A stretch of 8,357 bases of DNA from a virus. Its lineage: Duplodnaviria > Heunggongvirae > Uroviricota > Caudoviricetes. The number at the start of each line of letters is the position of its first letter. Position 1 is the stretch's first letter. The DNA lies in IMG/VR virus record IMGVR_UViG_3300029068_000009. One strand, written 5' to 3'. This document shows, piece by piece, positions 1 to 7,921 of the stretch. The position numbers and the translations under genes are program-made. The notes under the pieces were generated by a model. The model worked only from the letters and a program-made list of their open reading frames with translations, ran no database searches and had not been told where the DNA came from.

Positions 1-165
1 GCCACGGAATGGTCTGTGTTGTCGGGAGGATGCGTGATCTGATCCTTCAACTCAGCAAAAGTTCGATTTATTCAACAAAGCCCTTATGAGGCCGTAAAAA
101 CGACGCGGACACACAAAGCCCGACGGGAGAACCGAACTGCCGACCAGTTAAGCCAGTACGGGGCC

Positions 166-1509
166 GTGTCGTTACGTGAGCAGGCCCGTTACCTTGATAA
201 CAACCACGATCTGGTCATTGGTGTATTTGACAAGCTGGAAGAACGGGTGGTGGGGAAAAATGGGATTATTGTCGAGCCACATCCGGTATTACGCAATGGT
301 GCCATTGCCCGTGACCTGGCAGCGGAGATACGTACCCGATGGAGTGAATGGTCTGTCAGTCCGGAAGTCACCGGGCAGTTTACCCGTCCGATGCTGGAAC
401 GTCTGATGCTGCGTACCTGGCTGCGCGATGGTGAGGTGTTTGCCCAGATGGTTTCCGGGCGCATAAACAGCCTGACGCCTTCTGCCGGTGTTCATTTCTG
501 GCTGGAGGCGCTCGAGCCGGACTTTATTCCCATGACCAGTGATGAGAGCAACAGGCTGAATCAGGGCGTGTTTGTTGATGACTGGGGGCGTCCCGAAAAA
601 TATCTGGTGTATAAAAGTCGTCCTGTATCCAGACGGCAGATGGAAACCAAAGAAGTGGATGCAGAGCGAATGCTGCATCTTAAATTTGTTCGCCGTCTGC
701 ACCAGATGCGCGGGACGTCTTTATTGTCCGGTGTGCTGATCCGCCTCAGCGCCCTGAAAGAGTATGAAGATTCTGAGCTGACTGCAGCAAGGATCGCCGC
801 TGCTCTGGGGATGTACATCCGGAAAGGCGACGGACAGAGCTATGAAACGGATGGTAATGACAGCAAGGAGAACGAACGCGAGCTTACCATTCAGCCAGGC
901 ATTATTTACGACGATCTGAAACCCGGCGAAGAAATCGGAATGGTGAAGTCGGATCGTCCCAATCCTAACCTTGAAACTTTTCGTAATGGTCAGTTGCGTG
1001 CCGTGGCGGCGGGCAGTCGTCTGAGTTTTTCCAGTACGGCACGCAACTATAACGGCACTTACAGCGCCCAGCGTCAGGAACTGGTTGAGTCTACTGATGG
1101 CTACCTGATCCTGCAGGACTGGTTTATTGGTGCCGTCACCCGCCCGATGTATCGTGCCTGGCTGAAACAGGCTGTGGCATCCGGTGTTATCAGGCTACCC
1201 CGCGATCTTGACCGTTCTTCACTGTATACCGCGGTGTATTCCGGACCAGTGATGCCGTGGATTGACCCTGTTAAGGAGGCTGAGGCCTGGAAAATCCAGA
1301 TTCGTGGTGGAGCGGCGACAGAATCAGACTGGGTACGTGCTGGTGGTCGTAATCCGGATGATGTCAAACGTCGGCGCAAGGCCGAAATTGATGAAAACCG
1401 CAAGCTGGATCTGGTATTTGATACCGATCCGGCCAGTGATAAAGGAGGCAGCAGTGCCGCAACGAAACGACAGGAGCCGCAGCACACCGACGACCAGTCC
1501 GAAGAATAA
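166..1509 (+). CDS. Phage portal protein, lambda gpB family; 5' end uncertain
   Basis: 447-codon ORF immediately upstream of the protease/capsid gene, the usual portal position. Central segment GQLRAVAAGSRLSFSSTARNYNGTYSAQRQ resembles a lambda gpB segment as I recall it. First in-frame start is GTG at 166 with no obvious Shine-Dalgarno; the frame is open back to 43 (in-frame TGA at 40-42) with no ATG/GTG/TTG in between. Confidence 0.8.
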   Translation: MSLREQARYLDNNHDLVIGVFDKLEERVVGKNGIIVEPHPVLRNGAIARDLAAEIRTRWSEWSVSPEVTGQFTRPMLERLMLRTWLRDGEVFAQMVSGRINSLTPSAGVHFWLEALEPDFIPMTSDESNRLNQGVFVDDWGRPEKYLVYKSRPVSRRQMETKEVDAERMLHLKFVRRLHQMRGTSLLSGVLIRLSALKEYEDSELTAARIAAALGMYIRKGDGQSYETDGNDSKENERELTIQPGIIYDDLKPGEEIGMVKSDRPNPNLETFRNGQLRAVAAGSRLSFSSTARNYNGTYSAQRQELVESTDGYLILQDWFIGAVTRPMYRAWLKQAVASGVIRLPRDLDRSSLYTAVYSGPVMPWIDPVKEAEAWKIQIRGGAATESDWVRAGGRNPDDVKRRRKAEIDENRKLDLVFDTDPASDKGGSSAATKRQEPQHTDDQSEE

Positions 1510-3481
1510 TTCCTGGTTCAGGATGCAGGCTGGTCACCAGAGTGACGCGGATATTTATATTTATGACGAGATTGGTTTCTGGGGTGTTACAGCGAAGCAG
1601 TTTATCAGTGATCTGAATGCACTGGGCGATATCACCCACATTAATCTCCATATTAATTCACCGGGTGGCGATGTCTTTGAAGGCATCGCCATTTTTAATG
1701 CGCTGAAAACACATGGTGCGTCCATTACCGTTTATGTCGACGGTGTGGCGGCGTCAATGGCGTCGGTCATTGCGATGGTGGGAAACCCGGTCATTATGCC
1801 GGAAAACACTTTCATGATGATTCATAAACCATTTGGCTTTACGGGCGGTGATGCGGAGGACATGCGCACCTATGCCGACCTGCTCGATAAAGTTGAGGCG
1901 GTTCTGTTACCCGCTTATGCACAGAAAACCGGGAAAACCACCGATGAAATTGCTGCCATGCTGGCGGATGAGACCTGGATGTCCGGTGCCGAATGTCTGG
2001 CACATGGATTTGCTGATCAGGTAACGCCAGCCGTTAAGGCAATGGCATGTATTCAGTCAAAACGTACAGAGGAATTTAAAAAGATGCCGGAATCCATTCG
2101 AAACATGATTACTCCGCCACGCAACAGTGCTCCACGCGTACAGGATGATGAACCTGCAGCCTCCCGGACGCCAGTGCAGGCAGCAGCACCCGTGGTGGAT
2201 GAAAACAGTATCCGTGCGCAGGTACTGGCAGAGCAAAAAGCGCGTGTAAACGGTATTAATGATCTGTTTGCCATGTTTGGCGGGCGTTATCAGACGCTGC
2301 AGGCTCAGTGTCTTGCCGATCCTGAATGTTCGCTGGAGCAGGCCCGCGAAAAGCTGTTGAACGAGATGGGGCGCGAGTCCACGCCATCCAATAAAAATAC
2401 CCCGGCTCATATTTATGCCGGTAACGGTAATTTTGTGGGGGACGGGATCCGCCAGGCGCTGATGGCGCGTGCCGGATTTGAAAAAACCGAACGTGATAAT
2501 GTCTACAACGGGATGACCCTGCGTGAATATGCCCGTATGTCACTGACTGAACGGGGTATTGGGGTTTCCAGTTATAACCCGATGCAGATGGTCGGTGCGG
2601 CGTTCACACACAGTACGTCTGACTTCGGTAATATTCTGCTGGATGTTGCGAACAAAGCCATTCTGCAGGGCTGGGAAGATGCTCCTGAAACCTATGAACA
2701 GTGGACGCGGAAAGGTCAGTTGTCTGATTTTAAAATTGCCCATCGTGTGGGTATGGGGGGCTTCAGTGCTCTGCGTCAGGTGCGTGAAGGGGCGGAATAT
2801 AAATACGTCACCACCGGAGATAAACAGGCCACTATTGCACTGGCGACCTATGGCGAGCTGTTCAGTATCACCCGTCAGGCCATTATCAATGATGATCTGA
2901 ATATGCTGACCGATGTCCCGATGAAGCTGGGCCGTGCGGCGAAATCCACCATTGCCGATCTGGTTTATGCCATTCTGACGTCTAACCCGAAAATCTCCAC
3001 AGATAATGTAAGTCTGTTCGATAAAGCGAAACATGCAAACGTACTGGAGAGCGCTGCAATGGACGTGGCATCGCTGGATAAAGCCCGCCAGTTGATGCGC
3101 GTTCAGAAAGAGGGGGAGCGTCATCTGAATATTCGTCCTGCGTTCGTACTGGTACCGACGGCGATGGAGTCTGTTGCTAACCAGGTCATTCGCTCCTCAA
3201 GTGTCAAGGGGGCTGACATTAACGCCGGTATTATTAACCCGGTGAAAGATTTTGCGACCGTTATTGCAGAGCCTCGTCTTGATGATAACAGCCAGACCAC
3301 CTTCTACCTGGCTGCGTCCAAAGGCTCCGATACGATTGAAGTGGCTTATCTCAACGGTGTGGATACGCCATATATTGATCAGATGGAGGGCTTCAGTGTG
3401 GATGGCGTGACAACGAAAGTGCGTATTGACGCCGGTGTCGCGCCAGTTGATCACCGCGGTCTGGTGAAATGTACGGCGTAA
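1454..3481 (+). CDS. Tripartite head protein: ClpP-family (S14) prohead protease + scaffold-like linker + major capsid domain
   Basis: One uninterrupted ORF. N-terminal domain carries ClpP hallmarks: INSPGG; GVAASMAS with the putative catalytic Ser codon TCA at 1754-1756; MMIHKP with the His codon CAT at 1823-1825; a downstream acidic residue in LADETW. A middle charged/Ala-Gln-rich segment looks scaffold-like, and a C-terminal domain of about 400 aa sits where the major capsid protein belongs. Start chosen at GTG 1454, which has AGGAGG at 1443-1448 (5-nt spacer) and overlaps the portal 3' end by 56 nt; alternative start ATG 1523 has a weak RBS. Confidence 0.85.
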   Translation: MPQRNDRSRSTPTTSPKNNSWFRMQAGHQSDADIYIYDEIGFWGVTAKQFISDLNALGDITHINLHINSPGGDVFEGIAIFNALKTHGASITVYVDGVAASMASVIAMVGNPVIMPENTFMMIHKPFGFTGGDAEDMRTYADLLDKVEAVLLPAYAQKTGKTTDEIAAMLADETWMSGAECLAHGFADQVTPAVKAMACIQSKRTEEFKKMPESIRNMITPPRNSAPRVQDDEPAASRTPVQAAAPVVDENSIRAQVLAEQKARVNGINDLFAMFGGRYQTLQAQCLADPECSLEQAREKLLNEMGRESTPSNKNTPAHIYAGNGNFVGDGIRQALMARAGFEKTERDNVYNGMTLREYARMSLTERGIGVSSYNPMQMVGAAFTHSTSDFGNILLDVANKAILQGWEDAPETYEQWTRKGQLSDFKIAHRVGMGGFSALRQVREGAEYKYVTTGDKQATIALATYGELFSITRQAIINDDLNMLTDVPMKLGRAAKSTIADLVYAILTSNPKISTDNVSLFDKAKHANVLESAAMDVASLDKARQLMRVQKEGERHLNIRPAFVLVPTAMESVANQVIRSSSVKGADINAGIINPVKDFATVIAEPRLDDNSQTTFYLAASKGSDTIEVAYLNGVDTPYIDQMEGFSVDGVTTKVRIDAGVAPVDHRGLVKCTA

Positions 3482-3504: not shown

Positions 3505-3524
3505 GGCCCGTAAGGGCTTTTTTT
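3505..3524 (+). terminator. Putative weak intrinsic terminator or attenuator downstream of the capsid gene
   Basis: GCCC (3506-3509) pairs with GGGC (3514-3517) around a GNRA-type loop GTAA (3510-3513), followed by T7 (3518-3524). Lies 24 nt after the capsid-gene stop. The stem is only 4-5 bp. Confidence 0.4.
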
Positions 3525-3567
3525 GTACCTGAAATCAGCCTCTGAACGGGGCTGTGCGGAGACAGTT

Positions 3568-3891
3568 ATGGCAAAGAATTTTGTAGAAGAAGGAAAAACG
3601 GTGGCGATTGTTGCCAGTGCAGCCATCAGCAGCGGAGATCTGGTGCAGGTGGGTGATGTTTTTGCGGTGGCGCTGACCGATATTCCACAGGGTGAAACAG
3701 GCGACGGCATGACCGAAGGTGTGTTTATCCTGCCTAAACTGAAAACGGATGACATGAAAACGGGTAAGAAGGTTTATCTGAAGTCCGGAAAAGTTCAGCT
3801 GACTAACAGCGGCTCTGATCCGCTGGTCGGGGTTGTCTGGGCAGATGCCGGAACCAGTGCAGAAGAAGTGCCGGTAAAACTCAATGTCTGA
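3568..3891 (+). CDS. Small head protein, putative capsid decoration/cement protein (DUF2190-like)
   Basis: 107-aa ORF directly after the capsid gene. ATG 3568 is preceded by GGAG (3558-3561). Gly/Val-rich small beta-type protein; assignment is by position and general resemblance, not verified. The TTG at 3523 in the ORF track lies inside the T-tract and was not used. Confidence 0.55.
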   Translation: MAKNFVEEGKTVAIVASAAISSGDLVQVGDVFAVALTDIPQGETGDGMTEGVFILPKLKTDDMKTGKKVYLKSGKVQLTNSGSDPLVGVVWADAGTSAEEVPVKLNV

Positions 3892-4159
3892 TCCCTTTTC
3901 CCGGCTGGCAGCGCGTATGGATGCGATCACGGTCAGAAAGATGGGAAAGACAGCCTCGATTAATGATGTCGATATGGCTGTGATCCCGGGCGAAACACTG
4001 GCAGAGCTGAATGCTCTGTCCGGACCTGCGGTCTCTCTGGTGGTGTTTTCTTCGGGATACCGCCCACGGCGCGGGGATCGCGTTGTTTATGACGGACAAC
4101 AATGGACGGTCACACGGCATGAACGTTTTAACGGTAAGCCAATGATCTTTATTGAGTAA
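3884..4159 (+). CDS. Putative head-tail joining / head completion protein (positional analogue of lambda FII)
   Basis: 91-aa ORF whose ATG (3884-3886) overlaps the upstream stop (TGA 3889-3891) by 8 nt, indicating translational coupling. Sits between head genes and gpZ; function inferred from position and size only. Confidence 0.5.
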   Translation: MSDPFSRLAARMDAITVRKMGKTASINDVDMAVIPGETLAELNALSGPAVSLVVFSSGYRPRRGDRVVYDGQQWTVTRHERFNGKPMIFIE

Positions 4160-5147: not shown

Positions 5148-5158
5148 AGGAGGTGGCA

Positions 5159-5902
5159 ATGACCACACCAAATCCACTGGCAAAAACGAAAGGTGCGGGA
5201 ACGACGTTCTGGATGTACACCGGCAAGGGCGATGCGTTTGCGAACCCTTTATCGGACACTGACTGGCTGCGTCTTGCGATGGTGAAGGATCTGCAACCTG
5301 GCGAAATGACCGCTGATGCAGAAGATGACTCTTATCTCGATGATGAAGATGCAGACTGGAAAACGACAACCCAGGGGCAGAAATCCGTCGGTGATACTTC
5401 GGCGACGCTGGCCTGGCGTCCGGGTGACAGCGGGCAGAAAAAACTGGTTCAGTTGTTCGACTCCGGTGAAGTCTGCGCGTTTCGTATCAAATATCCCAAC
5501 GGCACTGTTGATGTTTTCCGTGGCTGGCTGAGCTCACTGGGTAAAACCATTGCCTCAAAAGACGTGATGACCCGCACAGTGAAAATCAGCGGTGTGGGGC
5601 GTCCGTATCTGGCAGAGGAAGGCACTGAAACAGTGAGCGTTACCGGGCTGACGGTGGCACCGGCATCTGCCAGTGTAAAAGTGGGAGCAACCACCACGCT
5701 GACCTTTACAGTAAAACCTGACGGAGCCAGTGACAAAGCGATCAGTGTGCATTCGACAGATCCACAGACTGCCACGGTGACCCTGAACGGGCTTGTGGCC
5801 ACGGTGAAAGGCGTGAAGCAGGGCAGTGTCAGCATTGTGGGCATGACTTCTGACGGCGATTTTGTGGCAGTGGCTGCGGTGGCTGTCAGCGCCGCAGGTT
5901 AA
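5159..5902 (+). CDS. V: Major tail tube protein, lambda gpV homologue, with C-terminal Ig-like domain
   Basis: Strong similarity to lambda gpV throughout: KGAGTT, ANPLSD, YLDDEDADW, GQGQKS, GDTS, LAW, PNGTVDVFRGW, TRTVK, GVGRP. ATG 5159 is preceded by GGAGG (5149-5153). C-terminal residues from about 161 form an Ig-like (Big_2-type) beta domain. Confidence 0.95.
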   Translation: MTTPNPLAKTKGAGTTFWMYTGKGDAFANPLSDTDWLRLAMVKDLQPGEMTADAEDDSYLDDEDADWKTTTQGQKSVGDTSATLAWRPGDSGQKKLVQLFDSGEVCAFRIKYPNGTVDVFRGWLSSLGKTIASKDVMTRTVKISGVGRPYLAEEGTETVSVTGLTVAPASASVKVGATTTLTFTVKPDGASDKAISVHSTDPQTATVTLNGLVATVKGVKQGSVSIVGMTSDGDFVAVAAVAVSAAG

Positions 5903-5922
5903 CAGGACGATACTCATCATTT

Positions 5923-5946
5923 GCCCCGGTTATCCGGGGCTTTTTT
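5923..5946 (+). terminator. Intrinsic (rho-independent) terminator between V and G
   Basis: Perfect 7-bp GC-rich stem, GCCCCGG (5923-5929) pairing with CCGGGGC (5934-5940), loop TTAT, followed by T6 (5941-5946). Lies 21 nt after the V stop. Confidence 0.7.
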
Positions 5947-5962
5947 GCAGGTGGAGAACATG

Positions 5963-6349
5963 ATGTTTCTGAAACAGGGCACGTTTAATTATGAAAAGCA
6001 GTCCGTGGTGCTCAGTGAGCTGTCCGGGCTGCAGAGAATTGAATATCTGGCGTTTGTTCAGCAGCGAACGGCAAAGTTTGATGCCGAAGAGGGAGAACTG
6101 CCGGAGGCTGAACGACAGATTGCTTTTCTGCGGATGGGGATGGATATCAATGCCTGGCTGGTTTCCCGCTCACTGTGGAATGCGGAACAGTCTCAGGATG
6201 TTGAGACGCTTTGCGCATCCGTTATTACAACATGGTCGTATGATGCCCTGGGAGCGGGGGCGGAGATGGTTCTGTCGCTGAGCGGTATGGGAGCCATTGA
6301 GAATGCCGGGGATTTGGAGCATGAGGTGCTGACGCCGGAAAAGTCCTGA
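5963..6349 (+). CDS. G: Tail assembly chaperone, lambda gpG homologue
   Basis: Starts MFLKQG as lambda gpG starts MFLK, and contains LSELSGLQRIEYLAF resembling lambda G LSELSALQRIEHLAL. ATG 5963 is preceded by GGAG (5953-5956). The TTG start at 5921 in the ORF track lies inside the terminator hairpin and was rejected. Confidence 0.85.
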   Translation: MFLKQGTFNYEKQSVVLSELSGLQRIEYLAFVQQRTAKFDAEEGELPEAERQIAFLRMGMDINAWLVSRSLWNAEQSQDVETLCASVITTWSYDALGAGAEMVLSLSGMGAIENAGDLEHEVLTPEKS

Positions 6350-6678
6350 CGCGGGAAATGCAGTTTGTCATGCGGCTTGCCCGGGAGTTCCGGCGGGCAG
6401 ACTGGCGGCGGATGCTGTCGGAAATGTCGGCCACTGAGCTTGGTGAGTGGGGCGATTATTTCCGGATGCAGAGCTTCAGTGATGTGTGGATGGATGCGCA
6501 GTTTGCCTCGCTGAAGGCATTGATCGTGAGAATGGTGTCCGGTAGCAGTGATGCTGCGGTGGCTGATTTCAGCCTTTTACCGGAAGAGAACGGGATACCG
6601 GAGCGAACGGACGAAGAACTGATGCATCTTGGGGAAGGTATTTCCGGAGGTGTGCGTTATGGACCAGACATCCGGTAA
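5963..6678 (+). CDS. T: gpGT tail assembly chaperone fusion made by programmed -1 ribosomal frameshift from G into the T frame
   Basis: The T ORF is in the -1 frame relative to G, opens at 6325 (after the T-frame TGA at 6322-6324) and overlaps the last 25 nt of G. This is the same arrangement as lambda G/T. Putative slip site G GAA AAG at 6337-6343. T-frame stop TAA at 6676-6678. Confidence 0.75.
6337..6343 (+). other. Putative -1 frameshift slippery heptamer G GAA AAG
   Basis: It is the only A-rich slippery-type sequence inside the 22-nt window (6325-6346) where both the G and T frames are open. It differs by one base from the lambda heptamer G GGA AAG. Confidence 0.55.
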
Positions 6679-7921
6679 GAAAAAAACACGCGAACCCCGT
6701 AATGATGAGGCCACCCGGTTATTGCTGCAGTACAGTCAGCAACAGGCACAGGTGGAAGGACAGATTGCTGCTGCCAGACAGTCAGCAGGCATTGCCACGG
6801 AAAGGATGACAGAAGCGCATAAACAGCTTCTGGCTCTGCAGCAGCGCATCAGCGACCTGGACGGGAAAAAACTGACGGCAGATGAAAAGAGTGTGCTGGC
6901 CCGTAAAGATGAACTGATTCAGGCACTGACGCTGCTGGATGTAAAACAGCAGGAGCTTCAGAAACAGACGGCACTCAACGAGCTGAAGAAAAAAACAATT
7001 CAGCTGACCAGTCAACTGGCTGAAGAAGAGCGCGCTCAGCGTCAGCAACATGACCTGGATATCGCCACGGTGGGTATGGGTGATCAGCAGCGGCAGCGAT
7101 ATCAGGTACAACTGAGTCTTCGCCAGAAATACCAGCAACAGCTGGAGCAGTTGAGGCGGGATAGTGAGCAGAAAGGAACATATAACACGGATGACTACAG
7201 AAAGGCCGAGCAGGCGCTGACGGAGAGCCTGAACCGACAACTGAATGAGAATCGCCGTTACTGGCAACAGCTTGAAGTTGTGCAGGGTAACTGGAAAAAC
7301 GGAGTCCTGCGTGCATTTCAGGATTTTACCGTGGATGCAGATAATACGGCAGGAACAGCAGAACAGGTGTTCTCGTCAGCCTTCAGCAACATGGGAAATG
7401 GCCTGGCAACTTTTGTCACTACCGGCAAACTCAATTTCAAATCCTTCACCTCTTCTGTGCTGTCAGATATGGCGAAAATCCTGGCGCAGGCAACCATGAT
7501 GAAATCGATAAAAGGGATTGGCAGTGTACTGGGATTTGATCTCAGCAGCCTTTCCCTGAATGCCAATGGGGGGATTTATCAGTCTGCTGATTTGAGTCGT
7601 TACAGTGGCACGGTGGTTAACCGTCCGACGTTTTTTGCTTTTGCAAAAGGCGCGGGTGTGATGGGGGAAGCGGGACCTGAAGCCATTCTGCCTCTGCGTC
7701 GTGGTGCTGACGGTAAGCTGGGGGTTGTGGCGGATATTGGTGGTTCAGGTATGGCGATGTTTGCCCCGCAGTACAACATCGAGATCAATAACGATGGCAC
7801 GAACGGGCAGATAGGTCCGGCTGCCCTGAAGGTGGTTTATGACCTTGGGAAAAAAGCGGCAGCGGACTTTATGCAACAGCAGGCCCGTGATGGTGGTCGG
7901 TTAAGTGGAGCATATCGGTAA
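6659..7921 (+). CDS. H: Tail tape measure protein, lambda gpH homologue, short (420 aa)
   Basis: ATG 6659 is preceded by GGAGG (6646-6650) and overlaps the T ORF end as in lambda. N-terminal part is Gln/Glu/Arg-rich and coiled-coil-like. The C-terminal part matches the lambda gpH C-terminus, including INNDGTNGQIGPAALK (VYD) and a final RDGG motif. Stop TAA 7919-7921 shares one base with the M start. Confidence 0.85.
   Translation: MDQTSGKKKTREPRNDEATRLLLQYSQQQAQVEGQIAAARQSAGIATERMTEAHKQLLALQQRISDLDGKKLTADEKSVLARKDELIQALTLLDVKQQELQKQTALNELKKKTIQLTSQLAEEERAQRQQHDLDIATVGMGDQQRQRYQVQLSLRQKYQQQLEQLRRDSEQKGTYNTDDYRKAEQALTESLNRQLNENRRYWQQLEVVQGNWKNGVLRAFQDFTVDADNTAGTAEQVFSSAFSNMGNGLATFVTTGKLNFKSFTSSVLSDMAKILAQATMMKSIKGIGSVLGFDLSSLSLNANGGIYQSADLSRYSGTVVNRPTFFAFAKGAGVMGEAGPEAILPLRRGADGKLGVVADIGGSGMAMFAPQYNIEINNDGTNGQIGPAALKVVYDLGKKAAADFMQQQARDGGRLSGAYR

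What the first reader, a model, noticed from the sequence alone, without database searches (positions are those of the whole stretch)
1454..3481. Head protease, scaffold and major capsid protein are encoded as one fused tripartite gene
Lambda uses separate C, Nu3 and E genes; here one ORF of about 650-675 codons does the job. The ClpP-type catalytic motifs are visible directly (Ser codon at 1754-1756 in GVAASMAS, His codon at 1823-1825 in MMIHKP, INSPGG loop), followed by a low-complexity charged linker and a roughly 400-aa C-terminal domain in the capsid position. This layout is known from Salmonella Gifsy-2-type prophages, where the polyprotein is self-processed. It implies a head assembly pathway distinct from lambda despite the lambda-like tail. 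No separate lambda-D or lambda-E type gene is present.
Basis: partly seen in the sequence, partly recalled or inferred. Interest (0 to 1): 0.5.

Follow-up and report, generated by a model that had tools for sequence, protein, structure and literature searches.

The report
Known fused protease-scaffold-capsid phage gene
This is an ordinary, already catalogued prophage gene in which the head protease, a scaffold segment and the capsid protein are made as one chain, as in Salmonella phage Gifsy-2; the only new lead is a conserved internal start site that may also yield a protease-free scaffold-capsid protein.

Summary
Window 1454-3481 (+) is one 675-codon ORF with an N-terminal ClpP-fold serine protease, two disordered linkers flanking a three-helix module, and a C-terminal HK97-fold capsid domain of about 350 aa. 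The third triad position is Glu, not Asp.

It is already known. It scores 985 bits against NCBIfam NF045540 (cut-off 475). It is 70% identical over its full length to the Gifsy-2 tripartite capsid protein. It occurs in 2125 of 5426 complete E. coli genomes and in viable phages (mEp460, cdtI).

One claim needs correcting. A 107-aa head-decoration gene (3568-3891) follows, 61% identical to its Gifsy-2 counterpart, so a functional lambda-D analogue is present.

New lead, not proven: an in-frame ATG at 2084 (Met211), at the protease/linker boundary, has a conserved AGGA motif 9-10 nt upstream, the lowest synonymous diversity in the gene and the least mRNA structure. This suggests a nested scaffold-capsid product, as in lambda C/Nu3.

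This copy sits in a damaged prophage, with an IS-truncated portal gene and a 1.8-kb tape-measure deletion.

The parts
83..1509 (+). Portal gene remnant of the lambda portal family. Its first ~27 codons are replaced by an IS end at window 1-82. Its 3' end overlaps the fusion gene by 56 nt.
   Evidence: Pfam Phage_portal_2, E=2.3e-78. The window is colinear with the intact prophage L001 only from position 83 onward.
1442..1448 (+). Shine-Dalgarno sequence AAGGAGG, 5 nt upstream of the GTG start.
   Evidence: Read directly from the sequence.
1454..3481 (+). ClpP-like prohead protease / scaffold / major capsid protein fusion gene, 675 codons, predicted 73.5 kDa.
   Evidence: NCBIfam NF045540, 985 bits against a cut-off of 475. 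PHROG 133 matches over the full length. PGAP annotates exactly these coordinates in identical copies. The conserved NSW[FY] motif lies upstream of ATG 1523, and homologues start at the position of GTG 1454.
1523..2116 (+). Protease module (residues 24-221) with a ClpP fold. The Pfam ClpP core spans residues 31-191, which is nt 1544-2026.
1754..1756 (+). Ser101 codon (TCA), the catalytic nucleophile in GVAASMAS.
   Evidence: Aligns with the ClpP active-site Ser. Invariant in 60 of 60 and 75 of 75 homologues.
1823..1825 (+). His124 codon (CAT) in MMIHKP.
   Evidence: Aligns with the ClpP MIHQP His. Invariant in 60 of 60 homologues.
1970..1972 (+). Glu173 codon (GAG), at the position of ClpP Asp171.
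   Evidence: The phmmer alignment pairs ERDNWMS with ADETWMS. In 60 homologues the column is E 51, D 6, T 2, V 1.
2069..2073 (+). Internal SD-like motif GAGGA, 10 nt upstream of ATG 2084.
   Evidence: The AGGA core is conserved in all 138 distinct homologous genes examined, while the encoded residue varies among E, Q and K.
2084..2086 (+). In-frame ATG (Met211), the candidate nested start. It would give a 465-aa, 50.7-kDa scaffold-plus-capsid product without the protease.
   Evidence: Supported. This is an inference and has not been demonstrated.
2117..2194 (+). Linker 1 (residues 222-247): Pro/Ala-rich, predicted disordered, variable in length across the family.
   Evidence: AF2 pLDDT below 50. 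Column conservation is 0.13-0.24 with 20-42% gaps.
2195..2380 (+). Three-helix module (residues 248-309), the presumed scaffolding (delta-domain-like) segment.
   Evidence: AF2 predicts helices at 227-250, 257-265 and 271-285 in 652-aa numbering, with pLDDT 88-95. No Pfam family matches it. The scaffolding role is inferred from its position and from Gifsy-2.
2381..2425 (+). Linker 2 (residues 310-324), predicted disordered. This is the likeliest region for the maturation cleavage that frees the capsid domain.
   Evidence: AF2 pLDDT below 50. The cleavage site itself is not known.
2426..3478 (+). HK97-fold major capsid domain (residues 325-675, 38.2 kDa).
3505..3528 (+). Terminator-like hairpin GGCCCGTAAGGGC followed by a run of seven T, between the capsid gene and the decoration gene.
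   Evidence: Found by the scan. The equivalent site in phage mEp460 is annotated as a rho-independent terminator.
3568..3891 (+). Head decoration (cement) protein gene, 107 aa, 11.1 kDa.
   Evidence: Pfam Phage_cement_2, E=1.3e-20. PHROG 122 'head decoration', E=1.4e-46. It is 61% identical to the Gifsy-2 protein at the same position.

Best explanation
Window 1454-3481 encodes a Gifsy-2-type tripartite head protein. It has an N-terminal ClpP-fold serine protease (Ser101, His124, Glu173), a disordered linker, a short helical scaffolding-like module, a second disordered linker and a C-terminal HK97-fold major capsid domain. The following steps are inferred from the 70%-identical Gifsy-2 protein and from general HK97/lambda head assembly. 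The chains co-assemble on the portal into a T=7 procapsid with the protease and scaffold parts inside. The protease is then concentrated inside the shell, cuts within the linkers and degrades the internal parts. This leaves a capsid protein of about 38-40 kDa. The shell expands during DNA packaging and is then stabilised by trimers of the 11-kDa decoration protein encoded just downstream. What is shown here is the architecture, the folds, conservation of the catalytic residues, family membership and gene context. What is inferred is self-processing, the cleavage sites, the T number and the binding of the decoration protein.
Against: No experiment bears on this particular protein. The primary Gifsy-2 paper (Effantin et al. 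2010, Virology 402:355) could not be read here, so the details of its processing come from my memory of the abstract and from citing papers. The acidic triad residue is Glu, not the canonical ClpP Asp. The cleavage sites are unknown. This copy lies in a prophage with a truncated portal gene and a deleted tape-measure gene, so it probably cannot build virions by itself.
Confidence: 0.9

Rival explanations
1. The gene yields two co-C-terminal products rather than one. The full-length 73.5-kDa protease-scaffold-capsid chain starts at GTG 1454. A nested 50.7-kDa scaffold-capsid chain starts at the internal ATG 2084 (Met211). The protease-to-capsid ratio would then be set by translation, as in lambda C/Nu3, HSV-1 UL26/UL26.5 and HFTV1 gp17/gp17.5. 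This extends the main explanation rather than excluding it.
For: ATG 2084 lies exactly at the end of the protease module and has GAGGA 10 nt upstream. In 138 distinct homologous genes (45 representatives below 95% DNA identity) the ATG is invariant. The codon pair at -5/-4 is always NAG-GAN (GAG-GAA, CAG-GAG, AAG-GAG, AAG-GAC), even though the residue changes among E, Q and K. The Glu206 codon is GAG in 33 of 33 representatives, whereas nine other invariant Glu columns mix GAG and GAA. The lowest synonymous diversity in the gene falls at codons 200-208 for window sizes of 3, 5 and 7 codons, and at 202-215 for 9. The 70-nt mRNA window centred on this ATG is the least structured of 653 windows in the gene, at -3.3 to -4.6 kcal/mol against a mean of -17.05. 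It is also more open than every annotated gene start in the window. The homologous window ranks 1-22 of about 640 in 15 of 15 diverse homologues, including GC-rich Pseudomonas phage MD8. The independently catalogued families NF045541 and phrog_4523 match only from residue ~209-220 onward. Database proteins P0228 and P0165 begin MP.SAK at the homologous Met. Nested protease/scaffold genes are a documented strategy (bioRxiv 10.64898/2026.09.13.751334).
Against: There are no protein or ribosome data. The depth of the synonymous dip alone is not significant against shuffled columns (P = 0.20-0.36); only its location is telling. More distant family members (35-47% identity) carry T, A, V, P or I instead of Met at this column, so the feature is not universal. 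The SD-to-ATG spacing of 9-10 nt is on the long side. The low mRNA structure could partly reflect the Lys/Glu/Phe/Asn-rich peptide encoded there. P0228 comes from a contig that begins inside the ORF, and P0165 comes from a frameshifted or split copy, so their starts are choices made by gene callers. I could not check whether Effantin et al. 2010 already considered this.
Confidence: 0.5
2. In this particular locus the gene is an intact but stranded relic. The prophage is defective, so the protein is either not made into virions or only contributes if a related helper phage supplies the missing parts.
For: Window 1-82 is a 100% match to the end of an IS5-family element. The portal reading frame is broken there, with an in-frame stop and about 27 missing codons. 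The tape-measure gene has an in-frame 1803-bp deletion, giving 420 aa instead of 1021 aa. Neither junction is found in 5426 complete E. coli genomes or in the GTDB representative genomes.
Against: The fusion gene is 100% identical to copies in apparently intact prophages, so any decay is recent. The window ends at the IS, so a simple IS insertion with the rest of the prophage beyond it cannot be excluded. Either junction could be an assembly artefact.
Confidence: 0.6
3. The long ORF is an artefact: two or three genes joined by a sequencing error or a frameshift, or a pseudogene.
For: Frameshifted or split copies do exist. One example is L168, with a 201-aa Clp protease ORF followed by a 443-aa scaffold-capsid ORF in another frame.
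Against: The uninterrupted fusion is conserved from 36% to 100% identity across more than 100 clusters at 50% identity. It has dedicated NCBIfam and PHROG models. It is present in isolated, viable phages. It is the form described for Gifsy-2.
Confidence: 0.01
4. The ClpP-like module is catalytically dead and serves only as a bulky scaffold, while another protease matures the head.
For: The canonical Asp of the ClpP triad is replaced by Glu. The protein scores far below the ClpP equivalog cut-offs (TIGR00493: 59.6 bits against 308.6).
Against: Ser101, His124, the GG of the INSPGG loop and Met122 are invariant in 60 diverse homologues. Residue 173 stays acidic in 57 of 60. The NCBIfam domain model NF045542, 'head maturation protease, ClpP-related', is passed at 215.7 bits against a cut-off of 120. 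No other protease gene is found in the head module.
Confidence: 0.03

Closest known systems
Salmonella phage Gifsy-2 tripartite capsid protein (STM1034.3n in NC_010393; Effantin et al. 2010, Virology 402:355)
   Same: The two proteins are 70% identical over the whole length, with the same protease-linker-helical module-linker-capsid order. The gene context is the same: a lambda-family portal gene overlapping the 5' end, a 107-aa decoration gene downstream (61% identity), then a PF13856 gene and lambda-like Z, U, V, G, T and H tail genes. The internal ATG with an upstream GAGGAG is also present in Gifsy-2.
   Different: The host is E. coli rather than Salmonella. The protein is 675 aa against 696 aa, with shorter linkers. 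This copy sits in a damaged prophage. All experimental knowledge (T=7, decoration trimers, processing) comes from Gifsy-2, not from this protein.
NCBIfam NF045540 'ClpP-like prohead protease/major capsid protein fusion protein' and PHROG 133
   Same: It is a full-length match well above the curated cut-off (985 bits against 475). PGAP gives this name to identical copies.
   Different: Nothing of substance. Phage GenBank records name the same gene inconsistently: protease C, Nu3, major head protein, protease/scaffold.
HK97 gp4 protease plus gp5 (delta domain fused to the capsid protein)
   Same: The capsid domain has an HK97 fold. A scaffolding segment is fused N-terminally to the capsid protein and is presumably removed by a head protease. 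The putative nested product from Met211 would have the same layout as gp5.
   Different: From established knowledge, the HK97 protease is a separate gene with a different (herpesvirus-protease-like) fold, and HK97 stabilises its shell by covalent chainmail rather than by a decoration protein. Here a decoration gene is present. Crosslinking residues were not examined.
Lambda C / Nu3 / E / D head genes
   Same: The portal (PF05136) and the tail genes Z, U, V, G and T are lambda families. A small decoration protein gene follows the capsid gene. If the nested start is real, the expression logic resembles C/Nu3.
   Different: No lambda gpE, gpD or S49-type gpC family was hit; SppA-type models give only weak sub-threshold matches. 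The protease is ClpP-type, and the capsid protein is fused to it rather than being a separate gene.
Cellular ClpP (peptidase family S14)
   Different: It has Glu in place of Asp171. It scores far below every ClpP equivalog cut-off. It is tethered to a capsid protein. Whether it forms heptameric rings or docks an ATPase cannot be tested here.

Membership tests
ClpP-like prohead protease / major capsid protein fusion (NCBIfam NF045540; Gifsy-2 type) | Full-length match to the family model above its curated cut-off. | tested here: met
   985 bits against a cut-off of 475, covering residues 32-674 and profile positions 2-651 of 652.
ClpP-like prohead protease / major capsid protein fusion (NCBIfam NF045540; Gifsy-2 type) | N-terminal ClpP-fold protease module with conserved Ser and His. 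| tested here: met
ClpP-like prohead protease / major capsid protein fusion (NCBIfam NF045540; Gifsy-2 type) | C-terminal HK97-fold capsid domain in the same polypeptide. | tested here: met
   AF2 model with pTM 0.83. Foldseek probability 1.00 to encapsulins and phage capsid proteins. Pfam Phage_capsid_4, E=9.4e-55.
ClpP-like prohead protease / major capsid protein fusion (NCBIfam NF045540; Gifsy-2 type) | Position between the portal gene and a small decoration gene, with no separate capsid gene in the head module. | tested here: met
   Window Pfam results and the annotated intact relatives L001, mEp460 and Gifsy-2.
ClpP-like prohead protease / major capsid protein fusion (NCBIfam NF045540; Gifsy-2 type) | Autoproteolytic removal of the N-terminal modules during head maturation. 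| not testable with these tools
   This needs virion or procapsid protein analysis. It is inferred from Gifsy-2 only.
Cellular ClpP (S14, ATP-dependent Clp protease proteolytic subunit) | Ser-His-Asp catalytic triad at the aligned positions. | tested here: not met
   Ser and His align, but the Asp171 position is Glu173; in the family it is E 51, D 6, T 2, V 1.
Cellular ClpP (S14, ATP-dependent Clp protease proteolytic subunit) | Score above the ClpP equivalog cut-offs. | tested here: not met
   TIGR00493 scores 59.6 bits against 308.6, and the other ClpP models are all far below their cut-offs.
Cellular ClpP (S14, ATP-dependent Clp protease proteolytic subunit) | Double heptameric ring and docking of a ClpX/ClpA-type ATPase. 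| not testable with these tools
   Only a monomer model was made.
Lambda-type head genes (C/Nu3, E, D) | Homologues of the gpC S49 protease, the gpE capsid protein and the gpD decoration protein. | tested here: not met
   No such Pfam families appear among the window's proteins. Only a weak sub-threshold SppA_dom hit was found (22.3 bits against 155).
Nested protease/scaffold genes (lambda C/Nu3, HSV-1 UL26/UL26.5, HFTV1 gp17/17.5) | A functional in-frame internal initiation site giving a shorter co-C-terminal product. | tested here: inconclusive
   There is a conserved ATG with an AGGA motif, a minimum of synonymous diversity and a minimum of mRNA structure at 2084. There are no protein or ribosome data, and the feature is absent from distant clades.

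The most novel reading that the evidence does not exclude
In the enterobacterial/Pseudomonas branch of this family, the 'tripartite' gene may really be a nested gene pair. A conserved internal ribosome-binding site (AGGA, 9-10 nt, then ATG; window 2069-2086, Met211) would drive abundant synthesis of a protease-free scaffold-capsid protein of 465 aa, laid out like HK97 gp5. The full-length protease-bearing chain from the GTG start, which overlaps the portal gene, would be the minor species. This would extend the lambda C/Nu3 and herpesvirus UL26/UL26.5 logic to a gene that also contains the capsid protein. It would also explain how the protease dose per procapsid is set. I could not check whether the 2010 Gifsy-2 paper already raised this.
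Probability: 0.5. Interest if true: 0.45.

Novelty: already known. Interest (0 to 1): 0.22.

Why it matters
As stated, the finding adds nothing new. The architecture was described for Gifsy-2 in 2010, it has its own NCBIfam and PHROG models, and it is carried by about 39% of complete E. coli genomes.

It has some practical value. The gene is named inconsistently in phage records: protease C, Nu3, head maturation protease, major head protein. At least one automated capsid-protein pipeline failed to recover a capsid protein for Gifsy-2 (PMC8814770). Recognising the fusion therefore prevents 'missing capsid gene' errors.

No solved structure of a close relative was found by sequence search of the PDB.

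If the nested internal start is real, it would give a simple and testable answer to how a capsid-tethered protease is kept sub-stoichiometric. It would also show that nested expression of head protease and scaffold, known from lambda, herpesviruses and an archaeal virus, operates here too.

Tried and rejected
- ATG 1523 as the true start (the mEp460 RefSeq choice, 652 aa). Rejected: a nearly invariant Trp in the N/K-S-W-F/Y motif lies upstream of it, close homologues begin MPK... at the position of GTG 1454, and that GTG has an AAGGAGG 5 nt upstream.
- A dnaX-like -1 frameshift site at TTT AAA AAG (2075-2083). Rejected: the heptamer is T AAA AAG, not A AAA AAG, and it is absent from Gifsy-2 and MD8.
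- Synonymous-constraint depth as a stand-alone statistic. It is not significant against shuffled columns (P = 0.20-0.36), so I rely only on the coincidence of its location with the pre-specified ATG and on the codon-level pattern.
- Foldseek with the full-length model. The output was swamped by ClpP chains, so a separate model of the C-terminal domain was needed.
- PDB sequence searches. The decoration protein gave nothing. The capsid domain gave only weak hits to Mu gpT-type capsid proteins (E = 2e-4).
- Reading Effantin et al. 2010. The paper is not held under its PubMed id or its DOI, and literature searches for processing or cleavage data on this family found none.
- Finding the source genome through the two junction sequences. 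There were no exact matches in the GTDB representatives, and no complete E. coli genome spans the tape-measure junction.
- Artefactual fusion and dead-protease readings. Both were considered and rejected on conservation.


Full report
**Observation**

The + strand carries one uninterrupted frame ending at 3481. Candidate starts include GTG 1454 (675 aa) and ATG 1523 (652 aa). Codon 1754-1756 is TCA (Ser) and codon 1823-1825 is CAT (His). Pfam places CLP_protease (E=2.8e-36, residues 31-191) and Phage_capsid_4 (E=9.4e-55, residues 375-672) in the same polypeptide.

**Start codon**

PGAP annotates exactly 1454-3481 in identical E. coli copies. The mEp460 RefSeq record instead starts at the ATG that corresponds to 1523. 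Alignment of N-termini settles the question. A nearly invariant Trp in the motif (N/K)SW(F/Y) lies upstream of ATG 1523. Close homologues begin MPK... at the position of GTG 1454. That GTG is preceded by AAGGAGG with a 5-nt spacer. I therefore use 675-residue numbering. Some calls used the 652-residue form, which is 23 lower.

**Anatomy**

An AlphaFold2 model built on a 75-sequence alignment has a mean pLDDT of 84. It shows three structured parts separated by two segments with pLDDT below 50.
- Protease module: residues 24-221.
- Linker 1: residues 222-247, Pro/Ala-rich. It is also the most variable and gappy part of the family alignment.
- Three-helix module: residues 248-309.
- Linker 2: residues 310-324.
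- C-terminal domain: residues 325-675.

**Catalytic residues**

In an alignment of 60 full-length homologues at 34-71% identity, Ser101 and His124 are invariant. So are the two Gly residues of the INSPGG loop. The residue that aligns with the ClpP acidic triad member is Glu173, where ERDNWMS in ClpP pairs with ADETWMS here. The Asp171 numbering for E. coli ClpP comes from established knowledge. Across the family this column is Glu in 51, Asp in 6 and other residues in 3. The triad is therefore Ser-His-Glu. The protein passes the NCBIfam domain model 'head maturation protease, ClpP-related' (215.7 bits against 120). It falls far below every cellular ClpP equivalog cut-off. It works like a ClpP-fold protease but is not a ClpP orthologue.

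**Already known**

- The protein scores 985 bits against NCBIfam NF045540, 'ClpP-like prohead protease/major capsid protein fusion protein' (cut-off 475). It matches PHROG 133 over its full length.
- The DNA is 100% identical to copies in many E. coli chromosomes and matches 2125 of 5426 complete E. coli genomes.
- It is at least 99% identical to genes in isolated phages such as mEp460, cdtI, Ayreon and Tritos, and about 77% identical to genes in several Stx-converting phages.
- HMMER against 1.84 billion cluster representatives returns more than 100 full-length fused relatives at 36-60% identity.
- It is 70% identical over its whole length to Gifsy-2 STM1034.3n. That is the protein of Effantin et al. 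[quoted passage not shown]

I could not read that paper. Citing papers confirm that the Gifsy-2 prohead protease and coat genes are fused (PMC12315714). [quoted passage not shown]

**Surroundings**

Upstream lies a lambda-family portal gene whose 3' end overlaps the fusion gene by 56 nt. Downstream the order is as follows:
- a terminator-like hairpin at 3505-3528;
- a 107-aa Phage_cement_2 / 'head decoration' gene at 3568-3891;
- a PF13856 'Gifsy-2' family gene at 3884-4159;
- lambda-type Z, U, V, G, T and tape-measure genes.

The decoration protein is 61% identical to the Gifsy-2 protein at the same position. A functional analogue is there. No lambda gpE, gpD or S49 gpC family is hit. No second capsid gene is found in the window or annotated in the head modules of intact relatives.

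**Most likely mechanism**

The steps after this sentence are inferred from Gifsy-2 and from general HK97/lambda biology. The chains assemble on the portal into a T=7 procapsid with the protease and helical modules inside. The confined protease cuts in the disordered linkers and degrades the internal parts. The remaining capsid protein of about 38-40 kDa expands on DNA packaging. Trimers of the 11.1-kDa decoration protein then stabilise the shell (masses).

**A lead beyond the finding**

An in-frame ATG at 2084-2086 (Met211) lies exactly at the end of the protease module, with GAGGA 10 nt upstream. I flagged it before testing it. The evidence is as follows.
1. Across 138 distinct homologous genes from IMG/VR, Gifsy-2, an Stx2d phage and Pseudomonas phage MD8, the ATG is invariant. 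The two codons at -5/-4 are always NAG-GAN (GAG-GAA, CAG-GAG, AAG-GAG, AAG-GAC). The nucleotide core AGGA is thus kept while the amino acid changes among Glu, Gln and Lys.
2. The Glu206 codon is GAG in 33 of 33 representatives. Nine other invariant Glu columns mix GAG and GAA, with 9 to 23 of 34 being GAG.
3. The lowest synonymous diversity in the gene falls at codons 200-208 for windows of 3, 5 and 7 codons, and at 202-215 for 9. The depth of that dip is not significant on its own against shuffled columns (P = 0.20-0.36).
4. The 70-nt mRNA window centred on this ATG is the least structured of 653 windows in the gene, at -3.3 to -4.6 kcal/mol against a mean of -17.05 and an sd of 4.7. It is more open than every annotated start in the window.
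5. The homologous window ranks 1-22 of about 640 in 15 of 15 diverse homologues.
6. The scaffold-plus-capsid part behaves as a separable unit. NF045541 and phrog_4523 match only from residue ~209-220 onward. Database proteins P0228 and P0165 begin at the homologous Met-Pro. One comes from a contig that starts inside the ORF, and the other from a frameshifted or split copy.

Together these points suggest a nested 465-aa scaffold-capsid product. The parallels are lambda C/Nu3, HSV-1 UL26/UL26.5 and HFTV1 gp17/17.5 (bioRxiv 10.64898/2026.09.13.751334).

Against this reading, there are no protein data. More distant clades lack the Met. The spacer is rather long. Peptide composition may contribute to the open mRNA. 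I put the probability at about 0.5.

**State of this copy**

Window 1-82 is a 100% match to the end of an IS5-family element. It replaces the first ~27 portal codons and leaves an in-frame stop. The tape-measure gene keeps its ATG at 6659 but lacks 1803 bp in frame, giving 420 aa instead of 1021 aa. Neither junction occurs in 5426 complete E. coli genomes or in the GTDB representatives. Between positions 83 and 6650 the window is 6558 of 6567 identical to an intact prophage. The prophage here is probably defective, or the assembly is wrong.

**Verdict**

The feature is already known and common, so its interest is low. The nested-start signal is the one item worth an experiment.

Noticed in passing
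window 1-82, junction at 82/83: The first 82 bases are a 100% match to the terminal part of an IS5-family (IS903-like, from memory) element. They replace the 5' end of the portal gene: about 27 codons are lost and an in-frame stop appears at codon 14 of frame 1. The junction sequence was not found in the GTDB representative genomes.
   Followed up: partly
window 6659-7921, junction at 6668/6669: The tape-measure gene keeps its ATG and first three codons, then skips 1803 bp in frame (residues 4-604 of the 1021-aa protein in the intact prophage L001). This leaves a 420-aa protein. No complete E. coli genome spans this junction. It would predict a much shorter tail or a dead prophage, or it is an assembly artefact.
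   Followed up: partly
window 3505-3528: A GC-rich hairpin followed by a run of seven T lies between the capsid gene and the decoration gene. The equivalent site is annotated as a rho-independent terminator in phage mEp460. A terminator inside the late operon, just after the most abundant structural gene, could tune the ratio of capsid protein to downstream proteins.
   Followed up: no
window 3884-4159: This 91-aa gene hits Pfam PF13856 'Gifsy-2', which is described as 'ATP-binding sugar transporter from pro-phage'. PGAP names it 'DNA breaking-rejoining protein', PHROG 153 names it 'minor tail protein', and mEp460 calls it a minor tail protein. Its position and a weak Phage_attach hit suggest a head-tail joining protein, so the database names look wrong.
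   Followed up: no
phage records H1-H25: The same gene is annotated in GenBank phage records as 'head-tail preconnector protease C', 'Nu3', 'Major head protein', 'putative protease/scaffold protein', 'head maturation protease' or 'prophage Clp protease-like protein'. In VT1-Sakai it is interrupted by IS629.
   Followed up: no
L168:2357-4332 (GCA_000755365.1, BBMQ01000056.1): This is a split version of the gene: a 201-aa Clp protease ORF ending in a stop, then a 443-aa scaffold-capsid ORF in another frame. Homology to the fused protein continues upstream of the second ORF's ATG in that ORF's frame, and AAGGA lies 10 nt before the ATG. It is either a real fission or frameshift, or a sequencing error.
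   Followed up: partly
window 5153-5902: The lambda gpV-like major tail protein carries a C-terminal Big_2 Ig-like domain (residues 163-241), as lambda V does.
   Followed up: no
window 5921-6678: Genes for the tail assembly chaperones G (PF06894) and T (PF06223) are adjacent, the pair that in lambda is joined by a -1 frameshift. I saw no obvious GGGAAAG-type heptamer at the end of G in a quick look at 6301-6360. The 3' end of T is altered by the tape-measure deletion.
   Followed up: no
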